Below, in pieces: positions 2,707 through 55,992 of a stretch of DNA of 64,000 nucleotides. The DNA comes from Giardia intestinalis (taxonomy: Eukaryota). Each line of letters starts with the position of its first letter. Position 1 is the stretch's first letter. The stretch lies in the NCBI GenBank assembly GCA_000002435.2, contig CM018789.1. One strand, given 5' to 3'. Both the position numbers and the translations under genes were made by a program. Under the pieces are notes generated by a model. It saw only the letters and a list, made by a program, of their open reading frames with translations. It was not told where the DNA came from and ran no database searches.

Positions 2707-3040
2707 GAACCAGACGTCCGAGACGCCGCCCGATACGAGGAAGTGGACTAAGAACGTATTTGCTGGAAACCACCTCAGCGATCAACACTGTATCATCCTC
2801 GGAGTCACATACAGTGCCACGGCCGATGGCAAGACAGATTAATCACGTCCCGGAATGCGCCACTCCTATGCCCGCTGCTCTCACAGCCGTCGCCGGCCCC
2901 CAGGTAGTCAACGACCGTGGTGACACCAGCATACATACTTCTGCCTTGTTTACTAGGAGAAGGGCTGTATTGTCCCAGCACGATAGAAACTGGGTACGCA
3001 TACAAGCAAGGCAGACAGGAGAAGACATTGATCTGCGCCG

Positions 3041-5077: not shown

Positions 5078-5201
5078 CAACAGCTGTCTAAAAGTATTAA
5101 TTTTTAATCTTAGATCGTGTTATTAGTGGAAGTAGTGTTTGCTTGTTACCTCCTATTCGAGTAAATCTTTCGATTAAAGCGAGTCCCCATGCGCCTCGTT
5201 G

Positions 5202-7553: not shown

Positions 7554-8481
7554 GGCCCGGTGAGCGCTTCCGGCACGCATGCCCCGTAGGTCTAAGTTGT
7601 ACAGTGTTTGTGAACTGTAGCGGAGACAGAGAAAGGTGGAAGCTGCATGCAACTTCCATCGCGGGAGTGCACGTCCCCGGTGGTCTATGAAAATAACCTC
7701 ATGCTGCCAAGGTTTTACTGCGTACGAAAGTTAGTAACATGGTACTGGAGACAATCGGTGGATGGAATGAATCATCATCACCAGGAGGTAAGTTTTCTAG
7801 GAGCCTACACCGAGTACTCCCACACTCACAAGGAATCTCCCCTAGACCTCCCTCATGTACGCTGCTATTTCTGAGGGCACTGAGATAACTTAAAGGTACC
7901 CCCTCGACAGGGACAGAATGAACAGTAACAAGTACACCGCATTCATCCTTGTTGTCAAGGCCGAGCAGAGGGCTATGTTGGAACTACTCAAGCCAACCAA
8001 CAAGAGGGATATGGAGGCAGTGAGTCTCTGATTCCTCTCTAAAAACGAAGAGGTAAGGCAAATATAAGACCAGCAGTATTTACATGTCTATACACTGCTG
8101 CTCCAATGAGACAGTTCAGCTGGACACGTTACTTTTGTCAGAGTGTTGGTAAAGTATACGGATGAATTGAAGAGTGATCACGGCAGCACTGTCTTTATAT
8201 ATACAGTTGCTAATGATCACAAAGAATTTGTAGGATTGCTATTGAATAAAAGAGGGGCCTACAGGATACTAGCCGTTGAACTACTCTTATATTAGCGGCA
8301 TAGCATAACAAATCAGAATATGTCAAACTTCTCGCAGAGAAAAAGAGAAGTATAAAGACCATTCGGAGCTGGGATAGTCTTTTGCTCGGTCGACTACGTT
8401 TGCTGTGTATAGAAAGGAAGACTACAACTATCATAGTGTTTTCCACAAGAGTTCAGGGAGTAGCAAATTTGGTTGGTATAA

Positions 8482-39037: not shown

Positions 39038-39667
39038 GAATTAAGAATTTATTGGTCCTGTCAGCCTCCTGTCAGCCGTTGATCGCCCATTGTCTAATGT
39101 GGCTTGCTACTCGGTTCTACCACTGGCCCTGCACGTTGGCTACTGGGTGCCGTTGAGAGGATCACCAACCCAGCCACCCAATCGACGAAGGAAGTGGCGG
39201 TAGACGCTCATGATCGTCTGCATGTGTTCGTTGTTGACGAGCGCTTGTATGCACTGCAGACCGCTGAGAACGCTCAGCAAACGCCACAGTGACCTTAGTC
39301 ATAGATCGGGGTGATGTACTCATCTCGGAGGTCGACCACACCAGGAATGGGCCTCAGCGATTTGGCACACAGGCACTCTGGGTTGGCCGACTGTAGTGGA
39401 GGAGCATGATTCACAGATGTCCTTTGGCTCCCCTATGAAGACGCAAAGCCTGGCTGTTTGTCTTTAACACTGCGAGCAACAGATACTCATAAACACCAGT
39501 TTACACAAAATGTAACGTTCGTTTTTAGGCTTGAGAGTTGGATGCATGTGCATCTGGGCCTATAGTGGGATAGCTGGTAAGGTAGTGTTCAACAGAATGT
39601 TCGTAGAATGCACCTGTACGTAGATTCCACACTTAACTTTCTGGGACACACAAAAAATAGTATACGA

Positions 39668-41896
39668 ATGTTGTGTCTGCTAGCTTTGGAATTCGTAGTT
39701 AGCCTCGTTGTCGATGCTTATCAGAATGCTTTTGAAAAGGAGTGTACGACTGTGGCGCAAAAGGACACATGCGCGACCAAGAAGTGTATAACGGTCAGCG
39801 GCACCGAACTGTGCCGCGAGTGCGTTGGCGGAAAAGTCCCTATCGACGGGATTTGTAAGGACACTACTGATTCCAGTGTTAGTTTATATGGATGCGAGCA
39901 TTCTAGTGGCACTGGATTTTGCACCTCGTGCAAGGATACCGCCTTCCTCTTCTACGGCAGCTGTTACGCTATAGACAAGGTTCCGGGAAACCTTGTTTGT
40001 AGCAAAGCAGAGAGTGGCAAGTGTACGGAGTGCAGACAAGGATCAAAGTTTCTGTTTACAAACCCCGACGACAGTGCGGCGGAACGGTGCATATTGTGTT
40101 ACGACAACGTCGGCTTCGGCTCATATAAAGGCGTCGATGGCTGCAGGTACTGCCTGCCTCCGCTCACCGGAGAGACATCTGCAGAGTGCAACTGGTGCCA
40201 GAATGAGAAGTATGGCCCGATAGACGGAGTATGCAAAGATCCGGGCAGGCACTTGTGCGCCGACGGGGCCTGCTCAAACTGTTACATGACTCACATTCAG
40301 CACAACGGAGGGTGCTACACAAAGACAGAAACCGTTGCACAGAAGATATGCACCACCGAAAACCAGTTCCAAGTAATTAACATCACTGCCTGCAAGAAGT
40401 GCGCCATTAAAGGGGAGGTCCCAATGGACGGGCGGTGCATAAAGGGCTTGCTCGAGCCAAAGTGCAACCCGTATCCTAACACGGATGGCAGCTGTACCGA
40501 TTGTAAGAAGGGCGGAGTCAGCTACGACACGTTCCTGTTCAACGAGGGCTGCTACAACATGAGCGATTACATCGGGTCCCAGATCTGCAGCAAGGTTAAC
40601 GAAAACGCAGAATGTGAACTTTGGAATATCGGAAGTTATGCAGTTTTCCGGCCTCCAAACGACAAAACTGCCCATACGTGCAGCGATACTTCTGCCAGGG
40701 GCATCCCTGGATGCTCCCGCTGCAGCTACAATGTTGAGAAGAAAGGGCCTATTTGCTATAACTGTGAGTACAACACGTTGGCTTTTGATAGAATGTCATG
40801 TATCACTGAAACCAGCTGCACAGGGGATAATGTACAACGAAAGTGCCCTGGAAACTCCGAAAGAGGGTGCAGATGCGAGTGTGCAGAGAAATCCTATAAG
40901 AACGGAGATAAGTGCGTTGCGTGCGATTCATCATGTCTGAAATGCGCTGGACGAGAGAGTAGATCTTGCACACTGTGTCCTCCTGGCAAAGCTCTTAAAT
41001 ACATAGGAAGTTCTATGGTAGGAACGTGTGAAGAGGGCTGCAAACAGGATGATACATGCGAGACCTGTGGCCTAACGGTTAATCAAACAGCATATTGCTC
41101 TAAGTGCAAGGACCCCACTAAATATCCCCTAGATGGTGTGTGCACATCAGCAAGTGAAGCCAGGACATCCGCCTGTTTGCAGCAGTCCAATGGAGCGTGT
41201 CAGAAATGCTCATCTGACTATTTCTTAATGGGCGGTGGCTGCTACCAAATCAACAAATATCCCGGTCGATTTGTATGTGGATGGGCCGACGATGGGAAGT
41301 GTATAGAGACTATGAATGGATACAGCATTAACGACCAGGGCCAACTTGTAGATTGCGACTCTACCTGCATGACGTGCGTGGAAGGCAAGAAGGAGCAATG
41401 CTTGTCGTGTCACTCAAGCAAATACCTCAAGAAGGAAGGGACAACTTCTTACGGCACCTGCGTGAGCCGCAACGACTGCAAGGACGGATACTACGCCAAT
41501 CACGATACCATGGAGTGCCTCCCGTGCAACATCAACGACTGCGTCTCGTGCCATCTTATTGACAAGTCAATTTTGTGCAGTCGATGTCGTGGAGACAATC
41601 TTGTGGGCCTCGACAAACGCTCGTGCACGACGGTGATCCCCGAAAATGCCGTTGAGTCCTGGGGTGGTTATACATGCAACGATGACTCGGTTCTCTCGGG
41701 CAACGCATGTCTGAGAAAGAGCTCCCAGAAGAACAAAGGAAATGGGCTTTCTAACAACGTGATTATTGGAATTTGTGTTGGAGCTGTTTTGATTATGGGT
41801 GCGCTGATTGGTGTCCTGGCCTGGTGGGTGGTGTCCCGGAAGAAAAAGAGCGCCAGCTTTGAACGTAGTAGAAGCCTGGTTATATCTAAGTCCTAG
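39668..41896 (+). CDS. High-cysteine membrane protein (HCMP): Cys-rich ectodomain, single transmembrane helix, short basic cytoplasmic tail.
   Basis: From ATG at 39668 the signal peptide is MLCLLALEFVVSLVVDAYQ. A CXXC/CXC-rich ectodomain of about 700 aa follows, then the transmembrane segment IIGICVGAVLIMGALIGVLAWWVV and the tail SRKKKSASFERSRSLVISKS. It does not end in CRGKA. An upstream in-frame ATG at 39608 would add 20 aa before the signal peptide. Confidence 0.85.
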   Translation: MLCLLALEFVVSLVVDAYQNAFEKECTTVAQKDTCATKKCITVSGTELCRECVGGKVPIDGICKDTTDSSVSLYGCEHSSGTGFCTSCKDTAFLFYGSCYAIDKVPGNLVCSKAESGKCTECRQGSKFLFTNPDDSAAERCILCYDNVGFGSYKGVDGCRYCLPPLTGETSAECNWCQNEKYGPIDGVCKDPGRHLCADGACSNCYMTHIQHNGGCYTKTETVAQKICTTENQFQVINITACKKCAIKGEVPMDGRCIKGLLEPKCNPYPNTDGSCTDCKKGGVSYDTFLFNEGCYNMSDYIGSQICSKVNENAECELWNIGSYAVFRPPNDKTAHTCSDTSARGIPGCSRCSYNVEKKGPICYNCEYNTLAFDRMSCITETSCTGDNVQRKCPGNSERGCRCECAEKSYKNGDKCVACDSSCLKCAGRESRSCTLCPPGKALKYIGSSMVGTCEEGCKQDDTCETCGLTVNQTAYCSKCKDPTKYPLDGVCTSASEARTSACLQQSNGACQKCSSDYFLMGGGCYQINKYPGRFVCGWADDGKCIETMNGYSINDQGQLVDCDSTCMTCVEGKKEQCLSCHSSKYLKKEGTTSYGTCVSRNDCKDGYYANHDTMECLPCNINDCVSCHLIDKSILCSRCRGDNLVGLDKRSCTTVIPENAVESWGGYTCNDDSVLSGNACLRKSSQKNKGNGLSNNVIIGICVGAVLIMGALIGVLAWWVVSRKKKSASFERSRSLVISKS

Positions 41897-42816
41897 AAGA
41901 CTCCGTCGTAAGCCACAAATGCGCTACTATTGTCTTTAAAGTCTAACACTATGCATGCTAAATCACTAGGTTGCAGCTCATCAACAAGGTCTACTAGCCT
42001 TTTATGGTAGTCTTTGGAGTCGTGCTGCTCTTCGTCGTTTCTAGCTAAGCGTAGCATGCTTGTGAAGAGGGGAGGAAGATTACCATAGTACTCAGTGAAC
42101 GCATCTAAGCAAGCCAGTTTGATTTCCCTTATTAGCGAGGGCTTCTTACACTTACGCCATGCCAGGCGGTCAGTCAAGATATCTAACCAGAGATAGCACA
42201 GGGCCTCGTAGTCATCACTGTACTGGGCTTTCCCACCAACTACGACATTAGAAGACGCGTACCTTGGAGTGACACGCGTGTCAGGATGCACTGTATCGCA
42301 TGTAATAAAGATGGCAGAGGATAGATCAATTGCCTTGGCTACGTCGTCTTTAACCAGAAAGTTGCGGGGACTGATGTCGCGGATAGAATAGCCAAGGGCA
42401 TGAGCAGTCGCAAGAGCATCGATAGTGCTGCGCAGCTTAGAAAGGATTGTAACTGCCACTTTGTCAGTGAGTCCAGAGACTAACATTGGCCGGAGCCGTT
42501 CTCCCCAGCGATCAAGAGTCTCGTCCATTAACTCCGTGGCCAGAAAATGGACATTCTCTGTCGTGCCGCACCCCAGAGGGCGCACAAAACAGGCAGGATT
42601 CGCTGCATGCATAGCCGCTAGAAGATCAAATTCCTTCGCAAAAGGATTCCCTGTGCATTCATGATCTCTTTGTGTTTTACTTGCTATCTTCAATGCCACA
42701 AAGGACGGGCTACACTCAGCTTCCGAGCAAGTAGACTGGGCTTTATATACTGTACCTGTGTTCCCGTAGCCCAAGAACTCAGAGACCTCGTAAGACCCCA
42801 CGGTCTGTCCGATCAT
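41893..42816 (-). CDS. Serine/threonine protein kinase, CK1/TTBK-like.
   Basis: 307 aa. It has the glycine loop LGYGNTGTVYKA, the VAIK-like ...ALKIASK, the catalytic-loop segment IRDISPRNFLV and an activation-loop region. ATG is at 42814-42816. The 4-nt overlap with the HCMP stop is typical of Giardia gene packing. Confidence 0.7.
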   Translation of the reverse strand: MIGQTVGSYEVSEFLGYGNTGTVYKAQSTCSEAECSPSFVALKIASKTQRDHECTGNPFAKEFDLLAAMHAANPACFVRPLGCGTTENVHFLATELMDETLDRWGERLRPMLVSGLTDKVAVTILSKLRSTIDALATAHALGYSIRDISPRNFLVKDDVAKAIDLSSAIFITCDTVHPDTRVTPRYASSNVVVGGKAQYSDDYEALCYLWLDILTDRLAWRKCKKPSLIREIKLACLDAFTEYYGNLPPLFTSMLRLARNDEEQHDSKDYHKRLVDLVDELQPSDLACIVLDFKDNSSAFVAYDGVF

Positions 42817-42835
42817 TATTTTGATTTACATCGCC

Positions 42836-45307
42836 GGTCCGAGCAATCCGTACCCCGTACAAGTCCTCCCCGCGGAAGGCGGACCCCGCCCGTTCGCCGC
42901 CCCAAGCCCAGAGTCCGGGGTTCGGGTCAGAACGTCGGTTGAGTCCGGGGGAGAAGAGCCCGACCGTGCACGCCAGCTCTGGCATCAACCGGAACGCCCT
43001 TCATACCTGCCGAGGAGCTAAGGCGCAATCCCTACCACCCAGTAGCACGACCGAGGCCACGGGGTTGAGCGGACGACAGCACCAGAGCGCCCGGCTGCTC
43101 GAGGCCCGGCGGACCAGAGGGCCTCCGTGAGGAAGACAGGGACCCGGCTCGTCCAGGGCACTGCGAAGCGCCGCCCCTCGCCGGGGATGCGCTCCGACGC
43201 CAGGAGAACGAGGGCCGCGGGCACACGTGGACGCCTGATAAGACGGCGGAAAAGCCGCGCCTCTCGTGCGAGCACGTGAAGCACTCATGAGCGCGCTTCC
43301 GGTGCTCCAGGTCCGGCCCGGGCCTCAGGAGCCCACTGAGACGGAGCATCCTACGCTGAGCGGCACCGGGTGAACGTTGAACTAGTAGGAGCGGAAGAGC
43401 ACGTGCCTGTCCTGAGCGAAGACCCTCCGCGGCGAGGCCGTCCAGACGCATGCAGCACAGACACCGGATGCAGGGCGCTGCTGAGTGGGGCAGCGGGGAT
43501 AGAGAAGGACATCCCCCTCAGCGCCCGTCGTGTGAACGTGCTCAGGGGAGGGTACCTAACACCCCGCAGAGCTCCAGTCGAGAGCCGAGGAGACGTGCCT
43601 CCCCACACAGCGGGGAAGCGGAGGAGCGGCATTCACCGGCCCGCTGCCCGGCTTGCAGCCTCTGCCTCGCCTCGAAGGGGAGCTGCCCCCTAACAGCGCC
43701 ACCGACGACCAGCACCTTGCTATCCAGAGGGCCGGGTCAGGACGGCCTGGACCTACGCTGGCGAGTCCATCCGGGTGCAGGCCTTCAGCGAGATCCTCGG
43801 CGCGATCCATAGGATGGGATGCGTGCTCTGTACGGTTCCGCCTGGCCCTTCCCCAAGAATGAGACAGGACAACCACGATCAGGGGACGATCATGATGCGC
43901 TCCACAAGGTAGTCCCGAGTCCCCTGGAGACCCAGACACTAGCCTTCCCGAGACAGAGCAGACTGCGTTCTACTGACTGCACATGGTGGCGTTCGCATGG
44001 CACAGGGAGACACAGGCTGATGGGCACGGCGACCTCGCTCGACATAACGAGCACCCCGACAGCAGACGGCCTCTGCCGGGCGAGTGTGCCCCGTCCCGAG
44101 GAGCTGCGTCGAGGCCTTCCTCCGGCTGTGACACGCCGCACCCCTGGGCTCGGTCCCTCGGGGCCCTACGCATGCTTCTGTGCTGCGCGGGACAGAACCT
44201 GCTCGCCAGGAGCTGAGGAGAGACCCCGCTCAGTGCCCATGCCGACGACACACTCATCTTCCATAGTAGCAACAATGACGTGGCGGGGGTAGTCACAGAG
44301 GCGGCAGGCCTGGTGAAGCAACATGGCTCGACGGTCAACACTGACAAGTATAGGAACACAGAGGGGCAGGAGGCCTCCTTCCTGGCCGGTCGAAGGAGCT
44401 CCCAGGGCAACGGAGGGCCGAAGCCAGTGATGGCACTAATCACTCGCCACGCTGGTCGAGATGGACCCGCACGTGGCCTATGTGAATCCCTCGGCAAGAG
44501 ATGGGAGCCTTGGGGTGCTTGGCTGGCAGAGGCGGACTGATCCTGCCCACACCGAAGAGTGGCGGCCTGGAACACCTGTCTGGCGTCTGCCGCAGCAGTT
44601 GGTAATCCCTTGACACCATCGAGTAGACGGGTGCCGGTTGTAGAGAGACGGCCTGACAGCGAACCGGTCCTGATCGCTCCTGGTGCCTCAGACGACGCCT
44701 CGACAGACCGAAGCATCACCCCAAGTGTGCTGTGCAGATGGACCAGCCCACAGGTCAGCTAAGCCAGACACGCTGCACAGGGTGAGCGTCGATGTGATCT
44801 CGTGCTGGGTGACGGACCAGCTGCAAGAGTGCACTGTGATTCATGAATAGGAGGGCAAACCAGAAGCCAGACCTCTCCTCCAACGCCAACGCATGGGAGT
44901 ACTCCGCCGGCATCCACGAACGCGTACTATGACTCCAAGACAGAGGCGCACGAGGAGCGCACCCTCCGGTCATACTCGGGACTGATGGTGCCCTCCACGA
45001 AGAGACGAAGAGGCACCCCGAGGAACGGGGTAGACACCCGGGGTCGTGGCGTGGGATCTTCGTCGTAGAGCATCAGCACCACGAAGCAATCCTGGAGTAC
45101 ATTGCCAGAGTCAATTGCTCTTGAGACTAGATCGCCGCGACTGACGCAAGGCCCTGAGATAGTAGGTGCCCACCAGTGCCAGACGGTAGTTGACCCCGAC
45201 GGGCCAGAGGAAGGAAAGTCCTAGGGGCACCGCGAGGAGCGGCAGCTTTTAGGAGAGCTGGGACATAGGGGTTCTTCCGCCGGGATCGAGGGCATCCGAC
45301 TCTCGGA
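42836..45307 (+). mobile_element. Copy 1 of a 2.47-kb GC-rich element: a 5'-truncated, degenerate non-LTR retrotransposon fragment (GilD-like dead element).
   Basis: Directly repeated at 51579-54050 (offset 8743 bp). All embedded ORFs are identical between copies except one amino acid (...EERSGFWF... versus ...EERSDFWF...). It contains an RT-like frame (44220-44540). The boundary is uncertain by about 5 bp because of a 1-nt indel at the 5' junction. Confidence 0.7.
44220..44540 (+). pseudogene. Reverse-transcriptase remnant (motif C and the downstream thumb region) of a non-LTR retrotransposon, interrupted by stops and frameshifts.
   Basis: Frame-0 translation reads GETPLSAHADDTLIFHSSNNDVAGVVTEAAGLVKQHGSTVNTDKYRNTEGQEASFL.... 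This parallels the L1/R2-type xYADDhhh-(about 20 aa)-GhxhNxxKT segment (for example FADDMIVYLENP...VSGYKINVQKSQAFLY). A TGA sits 9 codons upstream, and the upstream RT motifs are not in frame. Confidence 0.55.
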
Positions 45308-45596
45308 CTCTGGACTCTGCCTGGAAGCGAAAGACCTGCCTTCACTTGCCTCAACTGCCATTAAACTCTGATCTTACCCAGTGTACCGAAGCAAAAATAA
45401 GACTGTTCGGGCTGCCCCCGCGTGCTAATAGATCCCATCAGAAGTAGACGAGTCGTGGAGATGGGCTCGTTCCACGTGCCTGCTCCTCTGAGGATGCGCT
45501 GCCCTTGCTCCCCACCGAGTCCCTGGTGCTCCTCTCCGTCTCTCTGTGATCAGTAACATGTGGCACTGGCGCTTCGCTCTACCGGCCTTAGAGCGT

Positions 45597-47648
45597 TTAC
45601 TCTGAGAGGAGGGCAATTATCTCATGGCGCCTCCATAGCTTGGCCATGTCAAGGGCAGTTTCGTCCATATTATCTCTAATATTCTTCTCCCTCACAAGGA
45701 GCCTCGCACACTCTACGTAGCCGCTCTGTGCAGCGACTGTGAGAGCGGGCCATCCATCGTTATTTTGCATACCGCCCTCTTTCTCCACAAGTAATCTGAC
45801 ACAGCTTGCGTGGCCATTCTGCGCAGCCCACATGAGGGCCGTCCATCCATCCCTCGATTGCGCACAACTCTCCTTTTCTACGAGTAGCTCAACACAGCCA
45901 GCTTCGCCACGTTCTGCAGCAATCATAAGGGCGGTCCATTTGCTGTTATCCTGTATACCGCCTTCCTGCCTCAGAAGCAATTCGACACAGCTTCTGTGGC
46001 CTTTCCCCGCTGCAGCCATAAGGGCGGTTTCCCCATCGTTATCTTGCATGCCAACCTCGTTTTTCAAGAGCAATTTGGCACACTCTGAATGGCCAGCACT
46101 TGCTGCAGCCATGAGGGCCGTCCACCCCTTATCGCTCTTCATGCCGCTTTCCTTCTCTAGCAGGAGCTTAAGACAGTCTGCGCGGCCAGTCCTTGCAGTA
46201 TACATGAGGGCGGTCCATCCGTTGCTATCTTTCAGTCCCTTCTCTTTCTCCGCGAGCAGCTCCACAATCTCTGTGTATCCATATACCGCCGCCCTTATCA
46301 GAGCAGTTCCCTCGTATATCTTCCAGTCACCTACAAGTGCGCATCCCTTCATCTTCATGCCCCCCTGGAGCGGTATGAGGGCCTTCACAGCCTCCACGTC
46401 GTTTCTATCGACTGCCTTCATGAGGTCGGTGGAGTCGTCCTCCTCTATTAGGTGCTTCTCTGGCTCTTCTGACTCGTCTGATTCGTCTGACTCCTCCATT
46501 TCGTCTGTCTCGTCTGTTTCGCCCATCTCTGTCTTAATCTCCTGTATTTCCCTGAATAGCTTGGCGGCAATAGCACACTGCTCCCTAATGATGTCCATTC
46601 TTGCAGCTCGATCAGGAGGGTCCTTCCTAAGAGCTACTGTTTCGTTGTTGGCTCTATTCAAGGCTTCTACAAAGGCTGCGCGCACCTCCTTTAACCTTGT
46701 ATCTTGGGCCTCTTGTTCATCAGCAGAGATGCCAAGCCTCCGAAGTAGACGGGCGAGCCTTCTGGCAGTCGGCCTCTCGGCGGGATCGAGGACGAGCATC
46801 CTCTCAAGGACGCTCCTTGCGAGGTCGTCTGCGACACCGCTCAGGTCCGGCCTCCATCCGTCGACGAAGACCTCTGCTGGCTCCCTGCCCCCCAAGAAAT
46901 CCGGCTTCCTCAGGGTGGCGAGCTCGTATGCGACGGCCCCGAGGCTCCAGACGTCGGATGCGGCGGTCGTGTCACCGCAGAGGAGTGTCTCGGGGGCCAT
47001 GTACGCGGGGTCGCCAGCCTTCGCAGCTCCGCTCGATATGCCCTCGCAGAACCCGAAGTCTGCAAGAACAACACGCCGCCCGTCCCCAGCGAACATGATG
47101 TTGTCGGGCTCGAGGACAACGCTAGAGGGCAGGCCGTTGTGGGCACCTCTGCTGAGCCCGTGGAGGTGGGCAAGGGCGCCAGCCAGCTGCCCCAGAAGGG
47201 AGAGCACCAGCTTGCTGGGAATAGGTTCGTGAATGTCCCTGTAGTCGGTGATGAACTGCCTCAGGTCCCCGCAGCAGCGGTCTGTGACAACAAGGATCGT
47301 ATTGTCATCCATAAGCACCTGGTGGTATTTGAGAACGTCTGGGTGAAGGGTGCCTAGAAGAACGGTCAGCCTACGCCGAATGGCATCTACGCTGTGTTGA
47401 TCCAGACCATCAAGCCGGATTTCTTTCACAGCAAGGTACGGGCATCCCCTGAGAGAGTAGACGGCACCGTGGGCATCCTTACTGAGCATGTTACCTAGGC
47501 GTCTATGCAACTTTTTGGGGCTGAACACGGGAACGCCACCAGCGCCCATCGGCCCTGAAAAGCCGCTAACTAAATTGTTACTGGCATCTCCTAGGGCGCC
47601 CTCTGCGGTGGCTAAGGCAGAGGGGTAAAGCCCGCAGTCAACAGCCAT
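45597..47648 (-). CDS. NEK-like protein kinase domain (probably catalytically degenerate) fused to C-terminal TALM-type ankyrin repeats (Giardia NEK/protein 21.1 family).
   Basis: From ATG at 47648 (the track start at 47654 is GTG). The kinase core has ...YLAVKEIRL... and DFGFCEG but an altered catalytic loop (HGLSRGAHNGLPSSVVLEPDNIMF, no HRD). An acidic linker follows, then about 9 ankyrin repeats (GWTALMYTARTGRADCLKLLLEKE...). Confidence 0.8.
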   Translation of the reverse strand: MAVDCGLYPSALATAEGALGDASNNLVSGFSGPMGAGGVPVFSPKKLHRRLGNMLSKDAHGAVYSLRGCPYLAVKEIRLDGLDQHSVDAIRRRLTVLLGTLHPDVLKYHQVLMDDNTILVVTDRCCGDLRQFITDYRDIHEPIPSKLVLSLLGQLAGALAHLHGLSRGAHNGLPSSVVLEPDNIMFAGDGRRVVLADFGFCEGISSGAAKAGDPAYMAPETLLCGDTTAASDVWSLGAVAYELATLRKPDFLGGREPAEVFVDGWRPDLSGVADDLARSVLERMLVLDPAERPTARRLARLLRRLGISADEQEAQDTRLKEVRAAFVEALNRANNETVALRKDPPDRAARMDIIREQCAIAAKLFREIQEIKTEMGETDETDEMEESDESDESEEPEKHLIEEDDSTDLMKAVDRNDVEAVKALIPLQGGMKMKGCALVGDWKIYEGTALIRAAVYGYTEIVELLAEKEKGLKDSNGWTALMYTARTGRADCLKLLLEKESGMKSDKGWTALMAAASAGHSECAKLLLKNEVGMQDNDGETALMAAAGKGHRSCVELLLRQEGGIQDNSKWTALMIAAERGEAGCVELLVEKESCAQSRDGWTALMWAAQNGHASCVRLLVEKEGGMQNNDGWPALTVAAQSGYVECARLLVREKNIRDNMDETALDMAKLWRRHEIIALLSE

Positions 47649-47842
47649 TGCCACTTTTAAATCTCCATCTTAACTTGTTTTTTAAGAAGGTATTCAGTCC
47701 ATGTTTACAGAAGCCGGCCTTTTCTATACTATACAGTAGTCATCAATTAATGAACAGAATTATGTACTCATTTGGAGGTTTCCTCCTCTAGTGTGCTTAG
47801 ATACAACAAAGATGATTCATTTCACCAACCGGTTACTTCCAA

Positions 47843-47940
47843 TACTGTGTTGTTGGGACCTCCGCCTGTGGACATGGCCCAAAGGTTCCACGAATAAGCC
47901 CTCGCTCAATTCCTGGCCATATCTAGAGAAAAAGGCTACT
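47843..47940. repeat. Left arm of a perfect 97-98-bp terminal inverted repeat pair.
   Basis: The reverse complement of 47850-47940 is identical to 48862-48953. The arms enclose about 920 bp of AT-rich sequence with no ORF of 60 aa or more. Confidence 0.8.
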
Positions 47941-48861
47941 CGATGAGCACAAGGGCCCCCTCTAGTTACACAGAGGGACGACTAGAGACTCAACACAATT
48001 GTCACATACCACCTTCAGCTGTTAAGGGAATCAACACAGAACCGGGAACCAGATATTTGACTTATAGGCACGTATAAAATGATAGCTGGACCCATCTAGT
48101 CATCAGACGAACCAGTTACGGCGAAATATTCGGAAATACAGAGATAGAACATTCGTAATTATTTATGGAGCGAGCGATTTCTTCATCCTATATCCAGAGG
48201 CACCTTGAGAAACTCCGCGTGGTAACCAAACGAACACCTAACGAGATTAATCATAGGCTTTGAGAGCTAGCCTTCAGGGTGACTGAAGGAGGGAGAACCA
48301 CTGGCTACCCGAAGTTCTGAGGTATCCCCAAGCTCATAGCTTAGACAGACGACCATGGGACAAGAGAAACAACCACATTTTCACCAACCACTGTCACCCC
48401 CAATCCAAAGAGCCACAGCGATAGAAACCAACTAGACCCTAGAGGAAGGAACAACTATCGATAGGTAACGAGGTTCTGCATAGCGAACTACGGGCCCGCA
48501 GCATCCATCTGTTTTCACGGCGTTAGGATGGACTTTCGTAGGATTAGGGATGCCTTATGGGGTAAGAGACTATCGGTGGAATCGAAGTAGCAACGACGGC
48601 TACAGACAGAGGGGATAAAACGCTGTAAAAGAGGACATTGATGACCCGAATTCTCATCCATCATAGATAACAGACCAAGGAAGGAGGTGGAATTTATTAG
48701 TTACACGTGTTTGCAGAAAATTGGGGTCCCGGGCGAATCAGGCGTGCGAGCATCACCAGACGTGCATACCTGAGCCGAATGCACACACTACATAAGATCA
48801 CCAAAAAGAGTTGTATCCAGACGTACTAGTGAGAAGGAATCTCTTGTTACATTATTTACTA

Positions 48862-48958
48862 GTAGCCTTTTTCTCTAGATATGGCCAGGAATTGAGCGAG
48901 GGCTTATTCGTGGAACCTTTGGGCCATGTCCACAGGCGGAGGTCCCAACAACACAGCA
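48862..48958. repeat. Right arm of the 97-98-bp inverted repeat pair.
   Basis: See the left arm. The match is agtagcctttttctctagatatggccaggaattgagcgagggcttattcgtggaacctttgggccatgtccacaggcggaggtcccaacaac. Confidence 0.8.
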
Positions 48959-50292
48959 CTTAGATATAATCATAGCGTTAATACCCTCTCATGATTTCCA
49001 ACCCGTTTATGCCACAAAAGGAGAGATAATTATTTTCATGTTATATATAGACTGACGATACTTTTATTATGCTTGGTCTTCATAAGCAGCCAGTGACTTT
49101 TAATAGATATTTGGTTGTGTGGCATAAAACAACATGAGAAATACTAGCTCCGTTTCCTGCTTACAGTCGTTCGATCAGTTATAGCCTCGTGAGCATTAGG
49201 ACTCTGATGACATATCTTGTAAATGTTAGCCTCGAAATATCTGTTGATTTAGAAGACGAGAGACAACCCTATGTGTACCATCTTCTTGACTCCATGGGGT
49301 ATCCTTGTATACTAATCCATATATAAACCTGCCAGATAGATGGTAGAGCAGCTATTGTGGAGAGCTTACATAGGATCCTGTCTGCAGGCATAGTTCTGGG
49401 ATTTCACGAGTGAATTCCTTCATTTTTTGCTATCTCTAGAAACAATTAAGAGCTTCCCCCGCGACCTTGTACACCAAATCCGGTGCATCTTTAAATTCTT
49501 CAGATGGCACTCGTGTCTAACCTGAGTGAGTATGCTCTAATGGCACATATAGTTTTACTCCTTGTATGAGTCTGGCCCTTTCAAGAGCGTTAGCAGGCTG
49601 CGAGCACACATCTTTCTCAGACTCGGTAGTCTAGCTTTGGTCCCCCATCGTCCTCCTTATCTTCGGAGCATTCCCTGTCCTGTAAAACTGCACTCTATCA
49701 TCAGGGAGGCAAGGAGAGACTCAGAATTTATGAGTCGCTCTGTGGCGTTTATCCATCTGTGTTACTGGATTCTGGGCCCCCAACTTGCATTAGTAGCTCA
49801 GGAGTCGCATAAGCGTACCCACTTCCTTTGTAGCTTTATGTGGAGATGAAGCTAAATGGCTGCTAACAGGTCTGTGGATTCTTTTGGCAAGTTTGCATGT
49901 CGAATCAGTATGTTGTTAGGGATTTCGACTCCATATTCCTGTCTGGCCCGAATGCATGCGATGGCCGTTTTTGCCTTTTCACCGCTTCTACCTTGCTATG
50001 GGTTCTTAGCAGTCGATGTTTCTTCTTTTTCTCAATCGTTCTGATCACCCATGCAAGGAGCCCTGCTAACAGTTAGACGTACGTTGACAGTAGGCAATCA
50101 CTGGGTGGCCAGACTTTCAGCTCAGTCACTTCTGATCGGCTTCGTCGGATGCTCAGTTCGTGATCATCATAAGGCTCGAAGTGAAAAGCTTCACATTGTG
50201 TCGTTTATAATCCTCGTCTTCAACATAACTAATATAAATGGAAGTTTGCTCATGTATTTCTGCATCTACTCGCAGGTAAAGAGTCCAAGACT

Positions 50293-50889
50293 TTACTTAG
50301 CCTCATCTAGTGACAGGAGTAAATTATCGTCAGTAACTGCGGAAATTTCCCTATCAATTTTTGCGGCGGGACACGGGCGCCCTAAAGTAACTCTACTTTC
50401 AATTATGGTTTTTCTCATTCTGGTAATACTCCCCTCACATCGCATATAAGCATACTGACGTGAAGGAGATGTAAAGTAAACAGGAAATTTCCCAGAGAAC
50501 ATGGTTATAGCAATAACACATCGATATATTTTCTCAGCTGATGGCGTTATTTGCGGTCCACCGATAATGGGTATAAACTTTACCGAGTAGAGCTTTGAAT
50601 CTATTTGGGGTGTCATTTGATTTATAGTAGTACTTACTGAGAGACGGATTTGATCTCTTTGGCGATTAGATAATACAAAACCTCTTATACGGCTGCTATC
50701 ATCTATGCCAAAAAACAAATGCCCGCCGTTGGTATTAATAAAGGCATTTAAGTAAATTTGGGAATATCTTCTAATCTCTCGTATAAGGTTCTTTGTATCT
50801 TGTAGTGCTTTAAACTCCGTCTCTTTATCCTCTTCGAAATCTATCAGGTCATCATAGCGGAGGGACTCTGGAAGGGGACGAAGGGTCAT
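50293..50889 (-). CDS. AlbA_2 / Schlafen-like domain protein (198 aa).
   Basis: ATG at 50887-50889. The N-terminal half has the AlbA_2 (PF04326-type) signature ...ETEFKALQDTKNLIREIRRYSQIYLNAFINTNGGHLFFGIDDSSRIRGFVL... (EFK, then AF.NT.GG.L.FGIDD...I.G). It lies in a low-GC island between the two retroelement copies. Confidence 0.55.
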   Translation of the reverse strand: MTLRPLPESLRYDDLIDFEEDKETEFKALQDTKNLIREIRRYSQIYLNAFINTNGGHLFFGIDDSSRIRGFVLSNRQRDQIRLSVSTTINQMTPQIDSKLYSVKFIPIIGGPQITPSAEKIYRCVIAITMFSGKFPVYFTSPSRQYAYMRCEGSITRMRKTIIESRVTLGRPCPAAKIDREISAVTDDNLLLSLDEAK

Positions 50890-51578
50890 CTAAATTTCAG
50901 TAAATGTTGATGAACTTTACATAAACAGTATACAGTAACAAACTGAAGACTGGGCCGTATCGCCCTCCGAATGCCGGGACCAAAGACACCAGGCCAACGC
51001 GGAGGTCTTCGAGCGGCGCCAATGGTGCACAGGGCTGAAGCCGGAGGTTCAGGATCTGCTGCCGAGGGCAGCCGGCGCCCGGTTGTCGGGCCGGGTCCTC
51101 CGAGCTGCCCCGCGATCGACGACGACGCAGAGGCGGGCATCAAGGGCGTCGTCTCCAGATGTCTCCCAGGTCGCTGTACGCCCCATGCAAGGCATTGATG
51201 GAGCCACTTGCCCCGATGGCAGTTTCGACACCATCCTTCAAGGGCGCGCTGGACGCGTTTCTGCGCTGAGAGCGGGAGGAAGGTAAGCACGAAGAGAGCT
51301 TGCTCTGTCCATTGAGGTCGGCTGCTAGCCACTATTAGCAAGTCCTTCGTGCGGGCCGCCGCGCGGTGGCTCCCTCACTCATTCATCCAGAACTCGAACT
51401 TGGGGGTCGCCCACCTCTGGAGAAGAGCCTTGTGCTTCCTCCCTAGGGGGCCGTTGTTACCCCGCGATGCGTTCCTCTGGCCAATCTGGGCCAGCTGCTC
51501 CCTGCACCCGGTGGGCACCTGCTACCCCAGGGCTATGCAGCTCGCCTTCTGCCTCATCGAGGCTGATCTGCCACCTGC

Positions 51579-54050
51579 CGGCCGAGCAATCCGTACCCCG
51601 TGCAAGTCCTCCCCGCGGAAGGCGGACCCCGCCCGTTCGCCGCCCCAAGCCCAGAGTCCGGGGTTCGGGTCAGAACGTCGGTTGAGTCCGGGGGAGAAGA
51701 GCCCGACCGTGCACGCCAGCTCTGGCATCAACCGGAACGCCCTTCATACCTGCCGAGGAGCTAAGGCGCAATCCCTACCACCCAGTAGCACGACCGAGGC
51801 CACGGGGTTGAGCGGACGACAGCACCAGAGCGCCCGGCTGCTCGAGGCCCGGCGGACCAGAGGGCCTCCGTGAGGAAGACAGGGACCCGGCTCGTCCAGG
51901 GCACTGCGAAGCGCCGCCCCTCGCCGGGGATGCGCTCCGACGCCAGGAGAACGAGGGCCGCGGGCACACGTGGACGCCTGATAAGACGGCGGAAAAGCCG
52001 CGCCTCTCGTGCGAGCACGTGAAGCACTCATGAGCGCGCTTCCGGTGCTCCAGGTCCGGCCCGGGCCTCAGGAGCCCACTGAGACGGAGCATCCTACGCT
52101 GAGCGGCACCGGGTGAACGTTGAACTAGTAGGAGCGGAAGAGCACGTGCCTGTCCTGAGCGAAGACCCTCCGCGGCGAGGCCGTCCAGACGCATGCAGCA
52201 CAGACACCGGATGCAGGGCGCTGCTGAGTGGGGCAGCGGGGATAGAGAAGGACATCCCCCTCAGCGCCCGTCGTGTGAACGTGCTCAGGGGAGGGTACCT
52301 AACACCCCGCAGAGCTCCAGTCGAGAGCCGAGGAGACGTGCCTCCCCACACAGCGGGGAAGCGGAGGAGCGGCATTCACCGGCCCGCTGCCCGGCTTGCA
52401 GCCTCTGCCTCGCCTCGAAGGGGAGCTGCCCCCTAACAGCGCCACCGACGACCAGCACCTTGCTATCCAGAGGGCCGGGTCAGGACGGCCTGGACCTACG
52501 CTGGCGAGTCCATCCGGGTGCAGGCCTTCAGCGAGATCCTCGGCGCGATCCATAGGATGGGATGCGTGCTCTGTACGGTTCCGCCTGGCCCTTCCCCAAG
52601 AATGAGACAGGACAACCACGATCAGGGGACGATCATGATGCGCTCCACAAGGTAGTCCCGAGTCCCCTGGAGACCCAGACACTAGCCTTCCCGAGACAGA
52701 GCAGACTGCGTTCTACTGACTGCACATGGTGGCGTTCGCATGGCACAGGGAGACACAGGCTGATGGGCACGGCGACCTCGCTCGACATAACGAGCACCCC
52801 GACAGCAGACGGCCTCTGCCGGGCGAGTGTGCCCCGTCCCGAGGAGCTGCGTCGAGGCCTTCCTCCGGCTGTGACACGCCGCACCCCTGGGCTCGGTCCC
52901 TCGGGGCCCTACGCATGCTTCTGTGCTGCGCGGGACAGAACCTGCTCGCCAGGAGCTGAGGAGAGACCCCGCTCAGTGCCCATGCCGACGACACACTCAT
53001 CTTCCATAGTAGCAACAATGACGTGGCGGGGGTAGTCACAGAGGCGGCAGGCCTGGTGAAGCAACATGGCTCGACGGTCAACACTGACAAGTATAGGAAC
53101 ACAGAGGGGCAGGAGGCCTCCTTCCTGGCCGGTCGAAGGAGCTCCCAGGGCAACGGAGGGCCGAAGCCAGTGATGGCACTAATCACTCGCCACGCTGGTC
53201 GAGATGGACCCGCACGTGGCCTATGTGAATCCCTCGGCAAGAGATGGGAGCCTTGGGGTGCTTGGCTGGCAGAGGCGGACTGATCCTGCCCACACCGAAG
53301 AGTGGCGGCCTGGAACACCTGTCTGGCGTCTGCCGCAGCAGTTGGTAATCCCTTGACACCATCGAGTAGACGGGTGCCGGTTGTAGAGAGACGGCCTGAC
53401 AGCGAACCGGTCCTGATCGCTCCTGGTGCCTCAGACGACGCCTCGACAGACCGAAGCATCACCCCAAGTGTGCTGTGCAGATGGACCAGCCCACAGGTCA
53501 GCTAAGCCAGACACGCTGCACAGGGTGAGCGTCGATGTGATCTCGTGCTGGGTGACGGACCAGCTGCAAGAGTGCACTGTGATTCATGAATAGGAGGGCA
53601 AACCAGAAGTCAGACCTCTCCTCCAACGCCAACGCATGGGAGTACTCCGCCGGCATCCACGAACGCGTACTATGACTCCAAGACAGAGGCGCACGAGGAG
53701 CGCACCCTCCGGTCATACTCGGGACTGATGGTGCCCTCCACGAAGAGACGAAGAGGCACCCCGAGGAACGGGGTAGACACCCGGGGTCGTGGCGTGGGAT
53801 CTTCGTCGTAGAGCATCAGCACCACGAAGCAATCCTGGAGTACATTGCCAGAGTCAATTGCTCTTGAGACTAGATCGCCGCGACTGACGCAAGGCCCTGA
53901 GATAGTAGGTGCCCACCAGTGCCAGACGGTAGTTGACCCCGACGGGCCAGAGGAAGGAAAGTCCTAGGGGCACCGCGAGGAGCGGCAGCTTTTAGGAGAG
54001 CTGGGACATAGGGGTTCTTCCGCCGGGATCGAGGGCATCCGACTCTCGGA
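51579..54050 (+). mobile_element. Copy 2 of the 2.47-kb GilD-like non-LTR retrotransposon fragment. It probably extends further 5' than copy 1.
   Basis: Near-identical to 42836-45307. The ORF 51349..51873+ crosses the 5' repeat boundary in frame, continuing upstream into the GC-rich 690-bp segment 50890-51578. This suggests copy 2 is the longer, less truncated element. Confidence 0.7.
52963..53283 (+). pseudogene. Reverse-transcriptase remnant (copy 2), identical to 44220-44540.
   Basis: Same ...LSAHADDTLIFHSSNNDVAGVVTEAAGLVKQHGSTVNTDKYRN... frame, offset by 8743 bp. Confidence 0.55.
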
Positions 54051-54324
54051 TCTTGGACGGTAAGCAGGAGACCCATCCAGTGCAGTAGCTTGCACGAGGG
54101 AATTTGCTCAGATACACCTAGTGAAACGTGTCTGTTCGTCACATCCCCTACTTTCCCCAAGTCAAATGCCAGAGCCTTGGGGGCCTATTGGTGCTTTGTT
54201 GAGGACTGCTGTGCACAGACCCCAGATGCTCGACTAGACAGACTATCAGTGAACATGTTTATTGGCGACCTTTGGTCTGAAAAATTAGCGAGAGTCCGGC
54301 CCTGCTTTCCGACTGCCCTGCGCT

Positions 54325-55992
54325 ATGAGTTTTGCATATCTGTCCCCTGAGGAGCTTGCAGAGCAGCATCGACGTGGGACAGAGAGAAGCAATATCAGGG
54401 CACTCCAAGACACAGAGGAAAGGCGTCGGCGACAAGCGATGTGGCGTCGCATTGACTCCCAGGTGCGCAGAGACGACGTAGCAATTACTGCGTGTATGAG
54501 CCAGCTTCGGGGACTAAAGCTACAGGCGGCGCACTATCTCGATGTTCTAAACAGCACGACGACGGCGATTGCAGATCTTGAGGCCAAGATACATTTGCTG
54601 AGCCTGAGCTCTGAGGACATCAAGACACAGCTATGCAGAGGCTCATCGTGCTCTTCAATGAAACGCCCTTGTAGTTCTTCTCTCATTGCAGACCGTGACA
54701 GGCTGTATGGTGATATGACGAATGATTGGAAGGTGCGTGAATCTGACGGCTTTCTTCCTCACAGCTCTTCACCTCGGCCCAAGCATTCTCTTTTCTGGAA
54801 GGAGGTCCACTCATCTGGGCAGCCGGCTCAAATGGCCTGCGAAGATTCATTCTACGATTCACCCTCTGAGGAATGCGAGGCACAAACGTGTGCACTCGCT
54901 GGAAATATAGCCCACGAGTCGGCGGCGAGCATCCGTTCATCCCGTCACAGGCGTCTCCGCACATCAGCCACCAGACCGCATGCAAATGGCAGGTTTTCTG
55001 ACCCCGTTGCGTTTGACGAGCTCGACTATTTCAGGAGAAAAGTTTCTGCATTGCCACCTATGGATGATCTAGTCTCCTTACGTGCAGGCCATCCAGAAGA
55101 ACAGAACACAGTAAGTGGAACGTCTCTGTATTCTGGAGAGCCACGTCTCAATGAGCCCCCGTGCAGCAGACCCTCGTCAGAAGACCCTCGCCAGCTCAGG
55201 AAGAACCTTTTCACCGTGATCGATAAGTATCGCAATGGGTGTACATACTCGCTGATCTCCCTCTTTCCGCCGCTCGACAAGCTCTACCAGCTCTTCGCCG
55301 ACGCGCAGCCGGCTCTTTCGGCTATCAAGGCCTCCATTATGATAGGTGTGACCCTTTTTAAGATAGCAGAGTTTGTTCGCGAGCTCCTCAGCAGCGACGC
55401 CTTCTATAAGTTTGTGCTTGCTCTGGACCCGGCGGACCTTCCTCGCCTACCTGCCTCCTTGGCAGAGGCTCGGACCATTCTTAGAGATGACGGCGCATCA
55501 TCGCACGGTGATAGCGGTATTTACAATACAGTCAACTTACTGGTGTCTCTACGCATGTACGTCAGGGCCCACTGGTTTGACTCCGTTCAGTCCAGCTACG
55601 GCAACTTCCTGCACCGCTACTACCTCAAGTTCTTGCAGATCAACAGCATGTCCAGGATCACTGTCCCGCTGTGGCCTCAGTACAAGCGCGTCCGCCTATT
55701 CAATGCAGAGAGGCACCTTTTGCGAGACGGCGAGCTGGACTTTTCGTTCCTCTATGCAATCCTCTCCACATTTGCCATCCTCCACGAGTTGCACATTCTG
55801 CCCGTTCAGAGGGCCACCTACGGACATCACGAGCTCAAGATGTGTGAGCACGCAATGGAGCACGGCACGATGGTGCAGCCGTCGAGTGGAGCAGCCAGGT
55901 ACACGTGCATCTGGCCTGCGTGGGTGGACAAATACAATAACACGTATATAGGATCTCGATTTCGTAGGCACAGATCAGCGCAGTCCTCATAG
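54325..55992 (+). CDS. Hypothetical protein (555 aa).
   Basis: ATG-initiated long ORF immediately 3' of repeat copy 2. I recognised no domain. Confidence 0.55.
   Translation: MSFAYLSPEELAEQHRRGTERSNIRALQDTEERRRRQAMWRRIDSQVRRDDVAITACMSQLRGLKLQAAHYLDVLNSTTTAIADLEAKIHLLSLSSEDIKTQLCRGSSCSSMKRPCSSSLIADRDRLYGDMTNDWKVRESDGFLPHSSSPRPKHSLFWKEVHSSGQPAQMACEDSFYDSPSEECEAQTCALAGNIAHESAASIRSSRHRRLRTSATRPHANGRFSDPVAFDELDYFRRKVSALPPMDDLVSLRAGHPEEQNTVSGTSLYSGEPRLNEPPCSRPSSEDPRQLRKNLFTVIDKYRNGCTYSLISLFPPLDKLYQLFADAQPALSAIKASIMIGVTLFKIAEFVRELLSSDAFYKFVLALDPADLPRLPASLAEARTILRDDGASSHGDSGIYNTVNLLVSLRMYVRAHWFDSVQSSYGNFLHRYYLKFLQINSMSRITVPLWPQYKRVRLFNAERHLLRDGELDFSFLYAILSTFAILHELHILPVQRATYGHHELKMCEHAMEHGTMVQPSSGAARYTCIWPAWVDKYNNTYIGSRFRRHRSAQSS

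What the first reader, a model, noticed from the sequence alone, without database searches (positions are those of the whole stretch)
42836..54050. Two near-identical 2.47-kb direct repeats are dead non-LTR retrotransposon fragments (GilD-like)
The GC-rich repeat looks non-coding, with only short Arg/Pro/Gly-rich ORFs on both strands. One + strand frame (44220-44540, and again at 52963-53283) reads ...LSAHADDTLIFHSSNNDVAGVVTEAAGLVKQHGSTVNTDKYRN.... This is the xYADD box, with Tyr changed to His, followed about 20 residues later by the GhxhNxxK(T/S) motif, as in L1/R2-class reverse transcriptases. The frame is closed by a TGA 9 codons upstream, so the element is dead. This fits the described Giardia GilD family, or an undescribed relative. 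In copy 2 an ORF (51349..51873) runs in frame across the 5' repeat boundary. Copy 2 may therefore be a longer version of the element, with copy 1 truncated at 42836. Both copies share the same 3' end and differ by about 1 bp. That points to a recent segmental duplication or gene conversion rather than independent insertions.
Basis: partly seen in the sequence, partly recalled or inferred. Interest (0 to 1): 0.65.

Follow-up and report, generated by a model that had tools for sequence, protein, structure and literature searches.

The report
Dead Giardia retrotransposon relic, duplicated and homogenised
Two almost identical 2.5-kb GC-rich stretches in this Giardia chromosome are non-coding wreckage, most likely of the known dead retrotransposon family GilD, and they stay alike because the cell keeps copying one onto the other; this is ordinary for Giardia.

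Summary
Window 42833-45315 and 51577-54058 are direct repeats, 99.8% identical and 64.5% G+C, in Giardia intestinalis WB. All six frames are closed at about the random stop rate.

The reverse-transcriptase (RT) reading is plausible but thin. Across six frames of 3.2 kb, the only Pfam hit is RVT_1, over 48 residues covering the YxDD box and the next motif (19 bits, E=1e-3, below the curated cut-off). No upstream RT motif, endonuclease motif, poly(A) or target-site duplication could be detected.

Family-level evidence helps:
- Five diverged, differently deleted copies were recovered from other Giardia samples.
- Their larger deletions sit between 2-9 bp microhomologies.
- No intact relative exists among 1.84 billion representative proteins.
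- A VSP-family gene lies next door.

These traits match what the literature reports for GilD, but no GilD reference sequence was available to compare.

Both copies occupy the same two sites in the assemblage AII isolate DH. 110 variable sites group by strain and none by position, so the near-identity comes from gene conversion of an old duplication, not a recent duplication. Copy 2 extends about 625 bp further 5' and carries one arm of a 67-nt inverted repeat.

Known kind of feature; low interest.

The parts
42833..45315 (+). Copy 1 of the GC-rich repeat (2,483 bp). It starts 16 bp from the ATG of the minus-strand kinase gene 41893-42816.
   Evidence: Self-BLAST 99.8% to copy 2; list of differences; G+C 0.645.
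51577..54058 (+). Copy 2 of the GC-rich repeat (2,482 bp).
50952..51576 (+). 5' extension of copy 2: GC-rich (0.646) DNA that is absent from copy 1 and abuts the promoter and ATG of the minus-strand gene 50293-50889.
   Evidence: Composition profile and G+C. Present at the orthologous site in isolate DH, 94.6% identical. Short-read contigs of other isolates end inside it at 51205-51447.
52960..53280 (+). 107-codon open stretch holding the RT motif C-E remnant (LSAHADDTLIFHSS...GLVKQHGSTVNTDKY). The RVT_1 match covers residues 5-52, which is 52972-53115.
   Evidence: Pfam RVT_1, 19.1 bits, E=1.1e-3, profile positions 149-197 of 205. Changing His to Tyr raises it to 24.5 bits. Translation.
44217..44537 (+). 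The same RT-motif remnant in copy 1, with an identical peptide.
   Evidence: Translation.
51472..51538 (.). Left arm of a 67-nt inverted repeat. It lies in the 5' extension, so only copy 2 has it.
   Evidence: 73% complementary to 53889-53955; 46.8 bits, E=1e-8, against a maximum of 29.7 bits in 100 shuffles.
53889..53955 (.). Right arm of the inverted repeat. The equivalent in copy 1 is 45146-45212.
52655..52835 (+). 181-bp segment kept in the WB copies (copy 1 equivalent 43912-44092) but missing from the DH copy and three metagenome copies. It is flanked by the 8-bp direct repeat GTCCCGAG.
   Evidence: Multiple alignment; microhomology count.
45316..50951 (.). Unique DNA between the copies. 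It holds the NEK/ankyrin kinase gene 45597-47654 (-), a 2.6-kb ORF-free stretch, and the SLFN_AlbA_2 gene 50293-50889 (-). It is not part of the element, but it is bracketed by the repeats.
   Evidence: ORFs; gene names; Pfam families of the DH orthologues.

Best explanation
The window comes from Giardia intestinalis WB. The GC-rich block 50952-54058 is a decayed, non-functional relic of a non-LTR retrotransposon, most probably the described dead family GilD (Genie 2). A 2.48-kb internal part of it is present a second time 8.74 kb upstream at 42833-45315.

Shown:
- Both copies are closed in every frame.
- The only recognisable protein remnant is the RT palm segment (YxDD box plus the following motif).
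- Relatives in other Giardia samples are 75-95% identical and differ by internal deletions, the larger ones flanked by short microhomologies.
- Substitutions among copies show no codon periodicity, so all visible divergence is neutral.
- Both sites, with the same junctions, are occupied in the assemblage AII isolate DH.
- Within each strain the two copies are nearly identical, while between strains they differ by 13-15%.

Inferred:
- An old insertion happened before the AI/AII split.
- A DNA-level duplication of an internal fragment followed. This is preferred because there is no poly(A), no target-site duplication, and copy 1 lacks the 5' part.
- The two copies have since been repeatedly homogenised by gene conversion.
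- Conversion or recombination with other diverged family members would explain the mosaic pattern between WB and DH.

The element does nothing for the cell. At most it is a substrate for recombination.
For: Organism and genes: exact matches to G. intestinalis WB proteins KAE8301342, KAE8301344 and KAE8301345 on a 1,485,438-bp record.

Repeat.

Dead state: stop counts equal the random expectation.

RT remnant: RVT_1 is the only Pfam hit with E<=10 in the six frames of 50890-54120. About 14,000 residues of other control translations gave no Pfam hit: the other copies, the second GC-rich block, and the ORF-free spacer. The one stray hit among the small family ORFs was MHC_I_2 at E=0.1.

Family: a full HMMER scan of 1.84 billion representatives found only short ORFs from other dead copies and no intact RT. 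The contigs behind those ORFs align to the element at 75-95% identity.

Deletions with microhomology: 181 bp with 8 bp, 86 bp with 6 bp, 29 bp with 9 bp.

No codon periodicity among substitutions.

DH isolate: the element is present upstream of the kinase, on both sides of the NEK-SLFN block, and upstream of the 555-aa gene. DH copy 1 vs DH copy 2 is 98.3-100% identical, while WB vs DH is 85-88%. 110 sites group by strain and 0 by position. The mosaic includes about 330 bp that are nearly identical between WB and DH, flanked by tracts with 5-17 mismatches per 60 bp.

A VSP-family gene (PF03302) lies 0.9 kb from copy 1.

Literature:
- GilD copies lie next to VSP genes and are disrupted by microhomology-mediated deletions (PMC2861651).
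- RT remnants are annotated in the WB reference genome (PMC7000408).
- RT, VSP and HCMP genes form GC-rich islands (PMC3091692).
Against: The RT match is short (48 residues) and below Pfam's gathering score. After allowing for six frames its E-value is only about 0.04. No RT motifs N-terminal of YxDD, no CCHC or PD..D endonuclease motif, no poly(A) and no target-site duplication were detectable. None of the five other copies gives any RVT_1 hit. No GilD, GilM or GilT reference sequence could be obtained, so family membership was never tested by direct comparison. The DH and metagenome copies come from short-read assemblies, whose contig ends inside repeats could be partly chimeric.
Confidence: 0.75

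Rival explanations
1. The repeat is not a retroelement. It is a GC-rich non-coding repeat of the VSP/HCMP-associated islands, and the RT-like string in it is a chance match.
For: RVT_1 scores only 19.1 bits, below the 29.6 cut-off, over 48 residues. No other RT or endonuclease motif was found in any frame or in the consensus. The other copies give no hit. There is no codon periodicity. Another GC-rich block in the same window (1603-3040) has no RT signal at all.
Against: RVT_1 is the only family hit in six frames of the element. It matches the catalytic YxDD box plus the next motif in register, whereas similar-composition translations gave no Pfam hit. A single His-to-Tyr change lifts the score to 24.5 bits. 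The family decays exactly as reported for GilD (PMC2861651).
Confidence: 0.15
2. The two copies are a young segmental duplication, or two recent independent insertions of one dead master copy mobilised in trans. No gene conversion is needed to explain their identity.
For: 99.8% identity and identical lesions in both WB copies. A shared 3' limit combined with a shorter 5' end in copy 1 is the pattern expected from 5'-truncated LINE insertions.
Against: Both sites, with the same junctions, are occupied in isolate DH. The DH copies share DH-specific substitutions and indels with each other: 110 sites group by strain and 0 by position. There is no poly(A) and no target-site duplication.
Confidence: 0.07
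3. The repeats are kept alike by selection because they have a function, for example as a source of small or antisense RNA, or as boundary elements around the NEK-SLFN cassette.
For: Homogenisation occurs in two lineages. Telomeric Giardia retroposons are known sources of small RNAs (cited in PMC10999387).
Against: Divergence between strains is fast, at 13-15% against 1-4% in the flanks. Deletions differ from copy to copy. There is no Rfam match. Nothing in the sequence requires a function.
Confidence: 0.03

Closest known systems
GilD (Arkhipova & Morrison 2001), apparently equivalent to Genie 2 (Burke et al. 2002): the dead non-LTR retrotransposon family of Giardia lamblia WB
   Same: Same organism and strain. 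Interspersed rather than tandem. Every copy is dead, with stops, frameshifts and internal deletions. The larger deletions are flanked by microhomology. A VSP-family gene is adjacent. An RT remnant is present. There is an internal inverted repeat, and Genie 2 copies were reported to carry inverted repeats (my recollection of the abstract, not checked).
   Different: Nothing contradicts membership, but it was not tested directly because no GilD or Genie 2 sequence was available. Here only 48 residues of RT are recognisable and no endonuclease domain is. The near-identity of two local copies through gene conversion was not mentioned for this family in the papers I could read; the two primary papers were not available.
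GilM and GilT (Genie 1/1A): telomere-associated non-LTR retrotransposons of Giardia
   Same: Same host. Both are GC-rich LINE-like elements encoding an RT (PMC7000408, PMC10088271).
   Different: GilM and GilT are about 5.5-6 kb, lie in tandem subtelomeric arrays, and have an intact RT ORF. The element here is interspersed between ordinary genes and closed in all frames. Its RT fragment found no intact RT protein at E<=1e-3 among 1.84 billion representatives.
RT remnants (psi-RT) and retrotransposon relics next to duplicated VSP genes in the WB reference genome
   Same: GC-rich non-coding relics in VSP/HCMP/NEK-rich regions, often as duplicated near-identical blocks (PMC7000408 Table 2; bioRxiv 10.1101/2022.03.07.483299; PMC3091692).
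   Different: Those described relics lie between the two members of a head-to-head VSP pair. Here the two relic copies are direct repeats that bracket a NEK kinase gene and an SLFN_AlbA_2 gene.

Membership tests
GilD / Genie 2 (dead Giardia non-LTR family) | Nucleotide or protein similarity to the published GilD/Genie 2 consensus or copies | not testable with these tools
   The two primary papers are not held. No collection available here contains the Giardia reference elements.
GilD / Genie 2 (dead Giardia non-LTR family) | Recognisable reverse-transcriptase remnant | tested here: inconclusive
   RVT_1 covers motif C-E only: 19.1 bits, E=1.1e-3, below the gathering score of 29.6. No upstream motifs were found. 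The other copies give no hit.
GilD / Genie 2 (dead Giardia non-LTR family) | All copies dead: stops, frameshifts and substitutions | tested here: met
   Stops occur at the random rate in the + strand frames. Every one of seven copies carries different lesions. Substitutions show no codon periodicity.
GilD / Genie 2 (dead Giardia non-LTR family) | Internal deletions flanked by microhomology (as summarised in PMC2861651) | tested here: met
   181-bp deletion with 8 bp of microhomology, 86 bp with 6 bp, 29 bp with 9 bp, 24 bp with 3 bp.
GilD / Genie 2 (dead Giardia non-LTR family) | Interspersed location next to VSP-family genes (PMC2861651) | tested here: met
   A 762-aa cysteine-rich PF03302 (VSP family) gene lies at 39608-41896, 0.9 kb from copy 1, and a VSP pair lies at 160-7652. 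Distance from the telomere could not be determined.
GilD / Genie 2 (dead Giardia non-LTR family) | Internal inverted repeats (a Genie 2 feature, recalled from the abstract and not verified) | tested here: inconclusive
   One 67-nt, 73% complementary pair at 51472-51538 / 53889-53955 is significant against shuffles. Whether it corresponds to the published repeats is unknown.
Non-LTR retrotransposons with a restriction-like endonuclease (R2/CRE/NeSL/Genie group) | C-terminal CCHC and PD..D endonuclease domain downstream of the RT | tested here: inconclusive
   No Pfam or PDB sequence match downstream of the RT motif. RPD-like and RxDLVL-like strings can be picked out by eye, but they have no statistical support. 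Decay could have erased the domain.
Non-LTR retrotransposon insertion by target-primed reverse transcription | 3' poly(A) or simple-repeat tail and target-site duplication at the copy ends | tested here: not met
   No tail and no flanking direct repeat at least 7 bp long at either copy. The present repeat limits therefore look like duplication or conversion limits, not insertion ends.
GilM / GilT (Genie 1/1A) | Intact RT ORF, tandem subtelomeric arrays | tested here: not met
   There is no open frame, no tandem array, and no intact RT relative at E<=1e-3.
Old duplication kept alike by gene conversion (concerted evolution) | Both sites occupied, with the same junctions, in a second lineage; variable sites group by lineage rather than by site | tested here: met
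   DH contigs cover all four junctions. 110 sites group by strain and 0 by position. Caveat: the DH assembly is from short reads.

The most novel reading that the evidence does not exclude
Dead retrotransposon relics in Giardia are active recombination substrates. The two local copies are continually homogenised, and they also receive conversion tracts from diverged copies elsewhere in the genome, which would explain the mosaic WB/DH pattern. If so, they would record ongoing homologous recombination in a supposedly asexual parasite. As direct repeats, they could also mediate loss or amplification of the NEK-SLFN gene cassette that lies between them.
Probability: 0.3. Interest if true: 0.4.

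Novelty: already known. Interest (0 to 1): 0.2.

Why it matters
It matters little on its own. Giardia WB was surveyed for retroelements in 2001, dead RT relics in GC-rich VSP-associated islands are described and annotated, and this locus fits that picture.

Two modest points are useful. First, it is a clean, quantifiable example of concerted evolution of non-coding repeats in Giardia (110 sites against 0 across two sub-assemblages). That bears on how much mitotic or meiotic recombination this organism has. Second, it is a reminder that such repeats break short-read assemblies exactly here: every short-read contig recovered for this locus ended inside the element.

Tried and rejected
- **Pfam scans.** All six frames of copy 2 plus its extension gave only the RVT_1 fragment. 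The small ORFs of other copies gave nothing. Three frames each of L017, L018 and L019 gave nothing. A multi-copy consensus and upstream-frame chimeras did not extend the match beyond profile position 138.
- **NCBIfam.** Nothing for the real sequence. With Tyr restored, group II intron RT appeared at E=0.1.
- **PDB sequence searches.** The RT region, the consensus and the putative endonuclease region found no RT or R2 protein.
- **Structure prediction.** AlphaFold of the 107-residue stretch gave pLDDT 48, and the Foldseek matches were meaningless.
- **Word-indexed protein searches.** One call timed out. One was swamped by low-complexity words. Two found only ORFs of dead copies.
- **Other sequence checks.** A JGI metagenome DNA scan with a conserved pattern gave 0 hits. 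tblastx and blastn of the element against the rest of the window found no further copy. Rfam found nothing.
- **Reading RT motifs A and B by eye.** Two incompatible candidates turned up (IRVQAFSEI and LETQTLAFP), so I rejected this approach as unreliable.
- **Paralogue locus.** The paralogue of the 555-aa gene is not on record.
- **Primary papers.** The two GilD/Genie papers are not held.
Full report
**Where the window comes from.** Four ORFs around the finding are exact matches to proteins of Giardia intestinalis WB (ATCC 50803) on a 1,485,438-bp record. They are the kinase 41893-42816(-) = KAE8301342, the 198-aa SLFN_AlbA_2 protein 50293-50889(-) = KAE8301344, and the 555-aa hypothetical protein 54325-55992(+) = KAE8301345. 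The 685-aa NEK/ankyrin kinase at 45597-47654(-) lies between them. The accession numbers run consecutively across the region. I infer from this that the current annotation places no protein-coding gene inside either repeat.

**The observation.** A self-BLAST of the window returns a single direct pair, 42833-45315 and 51577-54058, at 99.80% over 2,484 columns. A base-by-base alignment shows one 1-bp indel and two substitutions inside the repeat, plus a ragged last 8 bp. Both copies have 64.5% G+C, against 48.7% for the DNA between them. The three + strand frames carry 20, 21 and 29 stops where 21.8 are expected from base composition. So nothing is open, and the many 100-260-codon ORFs on both strands are what this composition gives by chance. 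That includes the ORF crossing the 5' boundary of copy 2.

**Is it a reverse transcriptase relic?** I scanned all six frames of 50890-54120 against Pfam with stops masked. The only family reported at E<=10 is RVT_1. It covers residues 5-52 of the 107-codon open stretch and profile positions 149-197 of 205, which are the YxDD box and the following motif. The score is 19.1 bits, E=1.1e-3, below the gathering score of 29.6. Allowing for six frames, the E-value is about 0.04.

As an empirical control, about 14,000 residues of other control translations gave no Pfam hit at all. These were three frames each of three other copies, the second GC-rich block at 1603-3040, and the ORF-free spacer. The one stray hit among the small family ORFs was MHC_I_2 at E=0.1. 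Changing His to Tyr raises the RVT_1 score to 24.5 bits. A Tyr codon is a possible ancestral state, because four copies have T at the first codon position and WB has A at the second.

The match could not be extended, however:
- Chimeric queries that joined each upstream frame to the motif did not reach beyond profile position 138.
- A multi-copy consensus did no better.
- No other copy gives any hit.
- PDB sequence searches find no RT or R2 protein.
- An AlphaFold model of the stretch is too poor to use.

I could pick out two mutually exclusive 'motif A' candidates by eye, which shows that eye-matching is worthless here. On sequence statistics alone the RT origin is likely but not proven. No endonuclease domain is demonstrable.

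**Family behaviour.** A full HMMER scan of 1.84 billion representative proteins with the 107-residue stretch found no intact RT. It found five short ORFs, plus two spurious repeat proteins. The contigs behind those five ORFs are ENA metagenome assemblies, and they are further copies of the same element. They are 63-65% G+C (58% for the 508-bp L020 contig) and 75-95% identical to the WB copies.

Aligned together with the copy from isolate DH, they show a decaying repeat family. Each copy has its own internal deletions, and the larger ones lie between short direct repeats: 181 bp between GTCCCGAG, 86 bp between ACAGCG, and 29 bp between CGACGCCTC. Substitutions among copies are spread evenly over the three codon phases. 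All visible divergence is therefore neutral, and no copy shows signs of having diverged while under selection.

A cysteine-rich VSP-family gene (PF03302) lies 0.9 kb from copy 1, and a VSP pair opens the window.

These properties match what the literature says of GilD. It is one of only three retroelement families in WB and is the dead one. [quoted passage not shown] RT remnants are annotated in the WB reference genome (PMC7000408), and RT, VSP and HCMP genes form GC-rich islands (PMC3091692). The two telomeric families, GilM and GilT, have intact RT genes. The absence of any intact RT hit argues that this relic is not a close relative of them. I could not obtain a GilD or Genie 2 sequence, so membership is inferred rather than tested.

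**Extent of the element.** Copy 2 continues 5' of the repeat as about 625 bp of equally GC-rich DNA (50952-51576), reaching the promoter of the neighbouring gene. This extension contains a 67-nt stretch (51472-51538) that is 73% complementary to 53889-53955 near the 3' end of the repeat. That scores 46.8 bits, against a maximum of 29.7 bits in 100 shuffles. Copy 1 begins 38 bp past the equivalent of that arm and so lacks it. Neither copy ends in poly(A) or a simple repeat, and neither has a target-site duplication. The repeat limits therefore look like the limits of a DNA-level duplication or conversion tract, not retrotransposition ends.

**History of the two copies.** Contigs of isolate DH (assemblage AII, GCA_000498715.1) reach into the element from all four sides: upstream of the kinase, both ends of the NEK-SLFN block, and upstream of the 555-aa gene. 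The junctions are the same as in WB. Both copies therefore predate the AI/AII split.

In the two regions where all four sequences overlap (about 470 bp at the 3' end and about 390-540 bp at the 5' end), identities are as follows:

| Comparison | Identity |
|---|---|
| WB copy 1 vs WB copy 2 | 99.2% |
| DH copy 1 vs DH copy 2 | 98.3-100% |
| WB vs DH, within the element | 85-88% |
| WB vs DH, unique flanks | 95.7-99.3% |

110 variable sites group the sequences by strain and none groups them by position. Strain-specific indels are likewise shared by both copies of a strain. This is concerted evolution. The WB near-identity reflects gene conversion, not a recent duplication.

The WB-DH comparison is also mosaic. 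About 330 bp (53279-53600) are almost identical, flanked by tracts with 5-17 mismatches per 60 bp. One metagenome copy switches between DH-like and other-copy-like tracts. This suggests exchange with other, diverged family members. The caveat is that the DH and metagenome sequences are short-read assemblies whose ends inside repeats may be chimeric.

**Verdict.** The repeats are real, dead and non-coding. The best reading is a GilD-type retrotransposon relic, with an internal fragment duplicated long ago and the two copies kept alike by gene conversion (confidence about 0.75). The chief rival is a GC-rich island repeat with a chance RT-like string (about 0.15). The feature belongs to a known and already surveyed kind, and interest is low. 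The concerted-evolution signal is the only part worth a footnote.

Noticed in passing
window 351-2716 and 5192-7558: A second near-identical repeat (2,367 bp, 99.8%), this one inverted. It is a tail-to-tail pair of VSP genes (160-1602 on + and 6306-7652 on -, both ending in CRGKA). Each is followed by about 1.1 kb of 65% G+C non-coding DNA, and a 679-aa cysteine-rich gene (3041-5080, -) lies between them. The GC-rich tails show no similarity to the element studied here and no Pfam hit in six frames.
   Followed up: partly
window 47845-47940 and 48861-48956: A perfect 96-nt inverted repeat with a 920-nt spacer, inside a 2.6-kb ORF-free, AT-richer stretch (47655-50292) between the NEK gene and the SLFN_AlbA_2 gene. 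The stretch is 99.3% identical between WB and DH, more conserved than the neighbouring intergenic DNA, and the repeat arms are present in DH. There is no Pfam hit in six frames and no Rfam hit. It remains unexplained.
   Followed up: partly
window 54325-55992: The 555-aa hypothetical protein GL50803_00111871 has a paralogue that is at least 90% identical, GL50803_00114392, on another WB chromosome (a 2.76-Mb record). The right flank of copy 2 may therefore belong to a larger inter-chromosomal duplication. The paralogue's locus could not be fetched.
   Followed up: partly
window 51577-54058, minus strand: One minus-strand frame of the repeat has only 9 stops, against 15-29 in the other five frames and about 22 expected, and it contains a 249-262-codon open stretch antisense to the RT motif (43970-44719 in copy 1). 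It has no Pfam hit and no homologue, and substitutions show no codon periodicity. It is probably a composition effect or a trace of the old sense frame.
   Followed up: partly
loci L002-L016 and L021 (contig ends): Every short-read contig that reaches this locus stops inside the element: Logan unitigs, ENA metagenome assemblies, and the DH 454 assembly. The stops fall 60-1,500 bp past the unique flank. This shows that the element is multi-copy in those genomes and systematically breaks assemblies here.
   Followed up: no
L008 201-414 and the start of L018, against window 42961-43029: The AII-type copies carry a 212-bp segment where the WB copies have 68 unrelated bases. Both DH copies share it. 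It is either an insertion in AII or a replacement in WB, and its origin is unknown.
   Followed up: no
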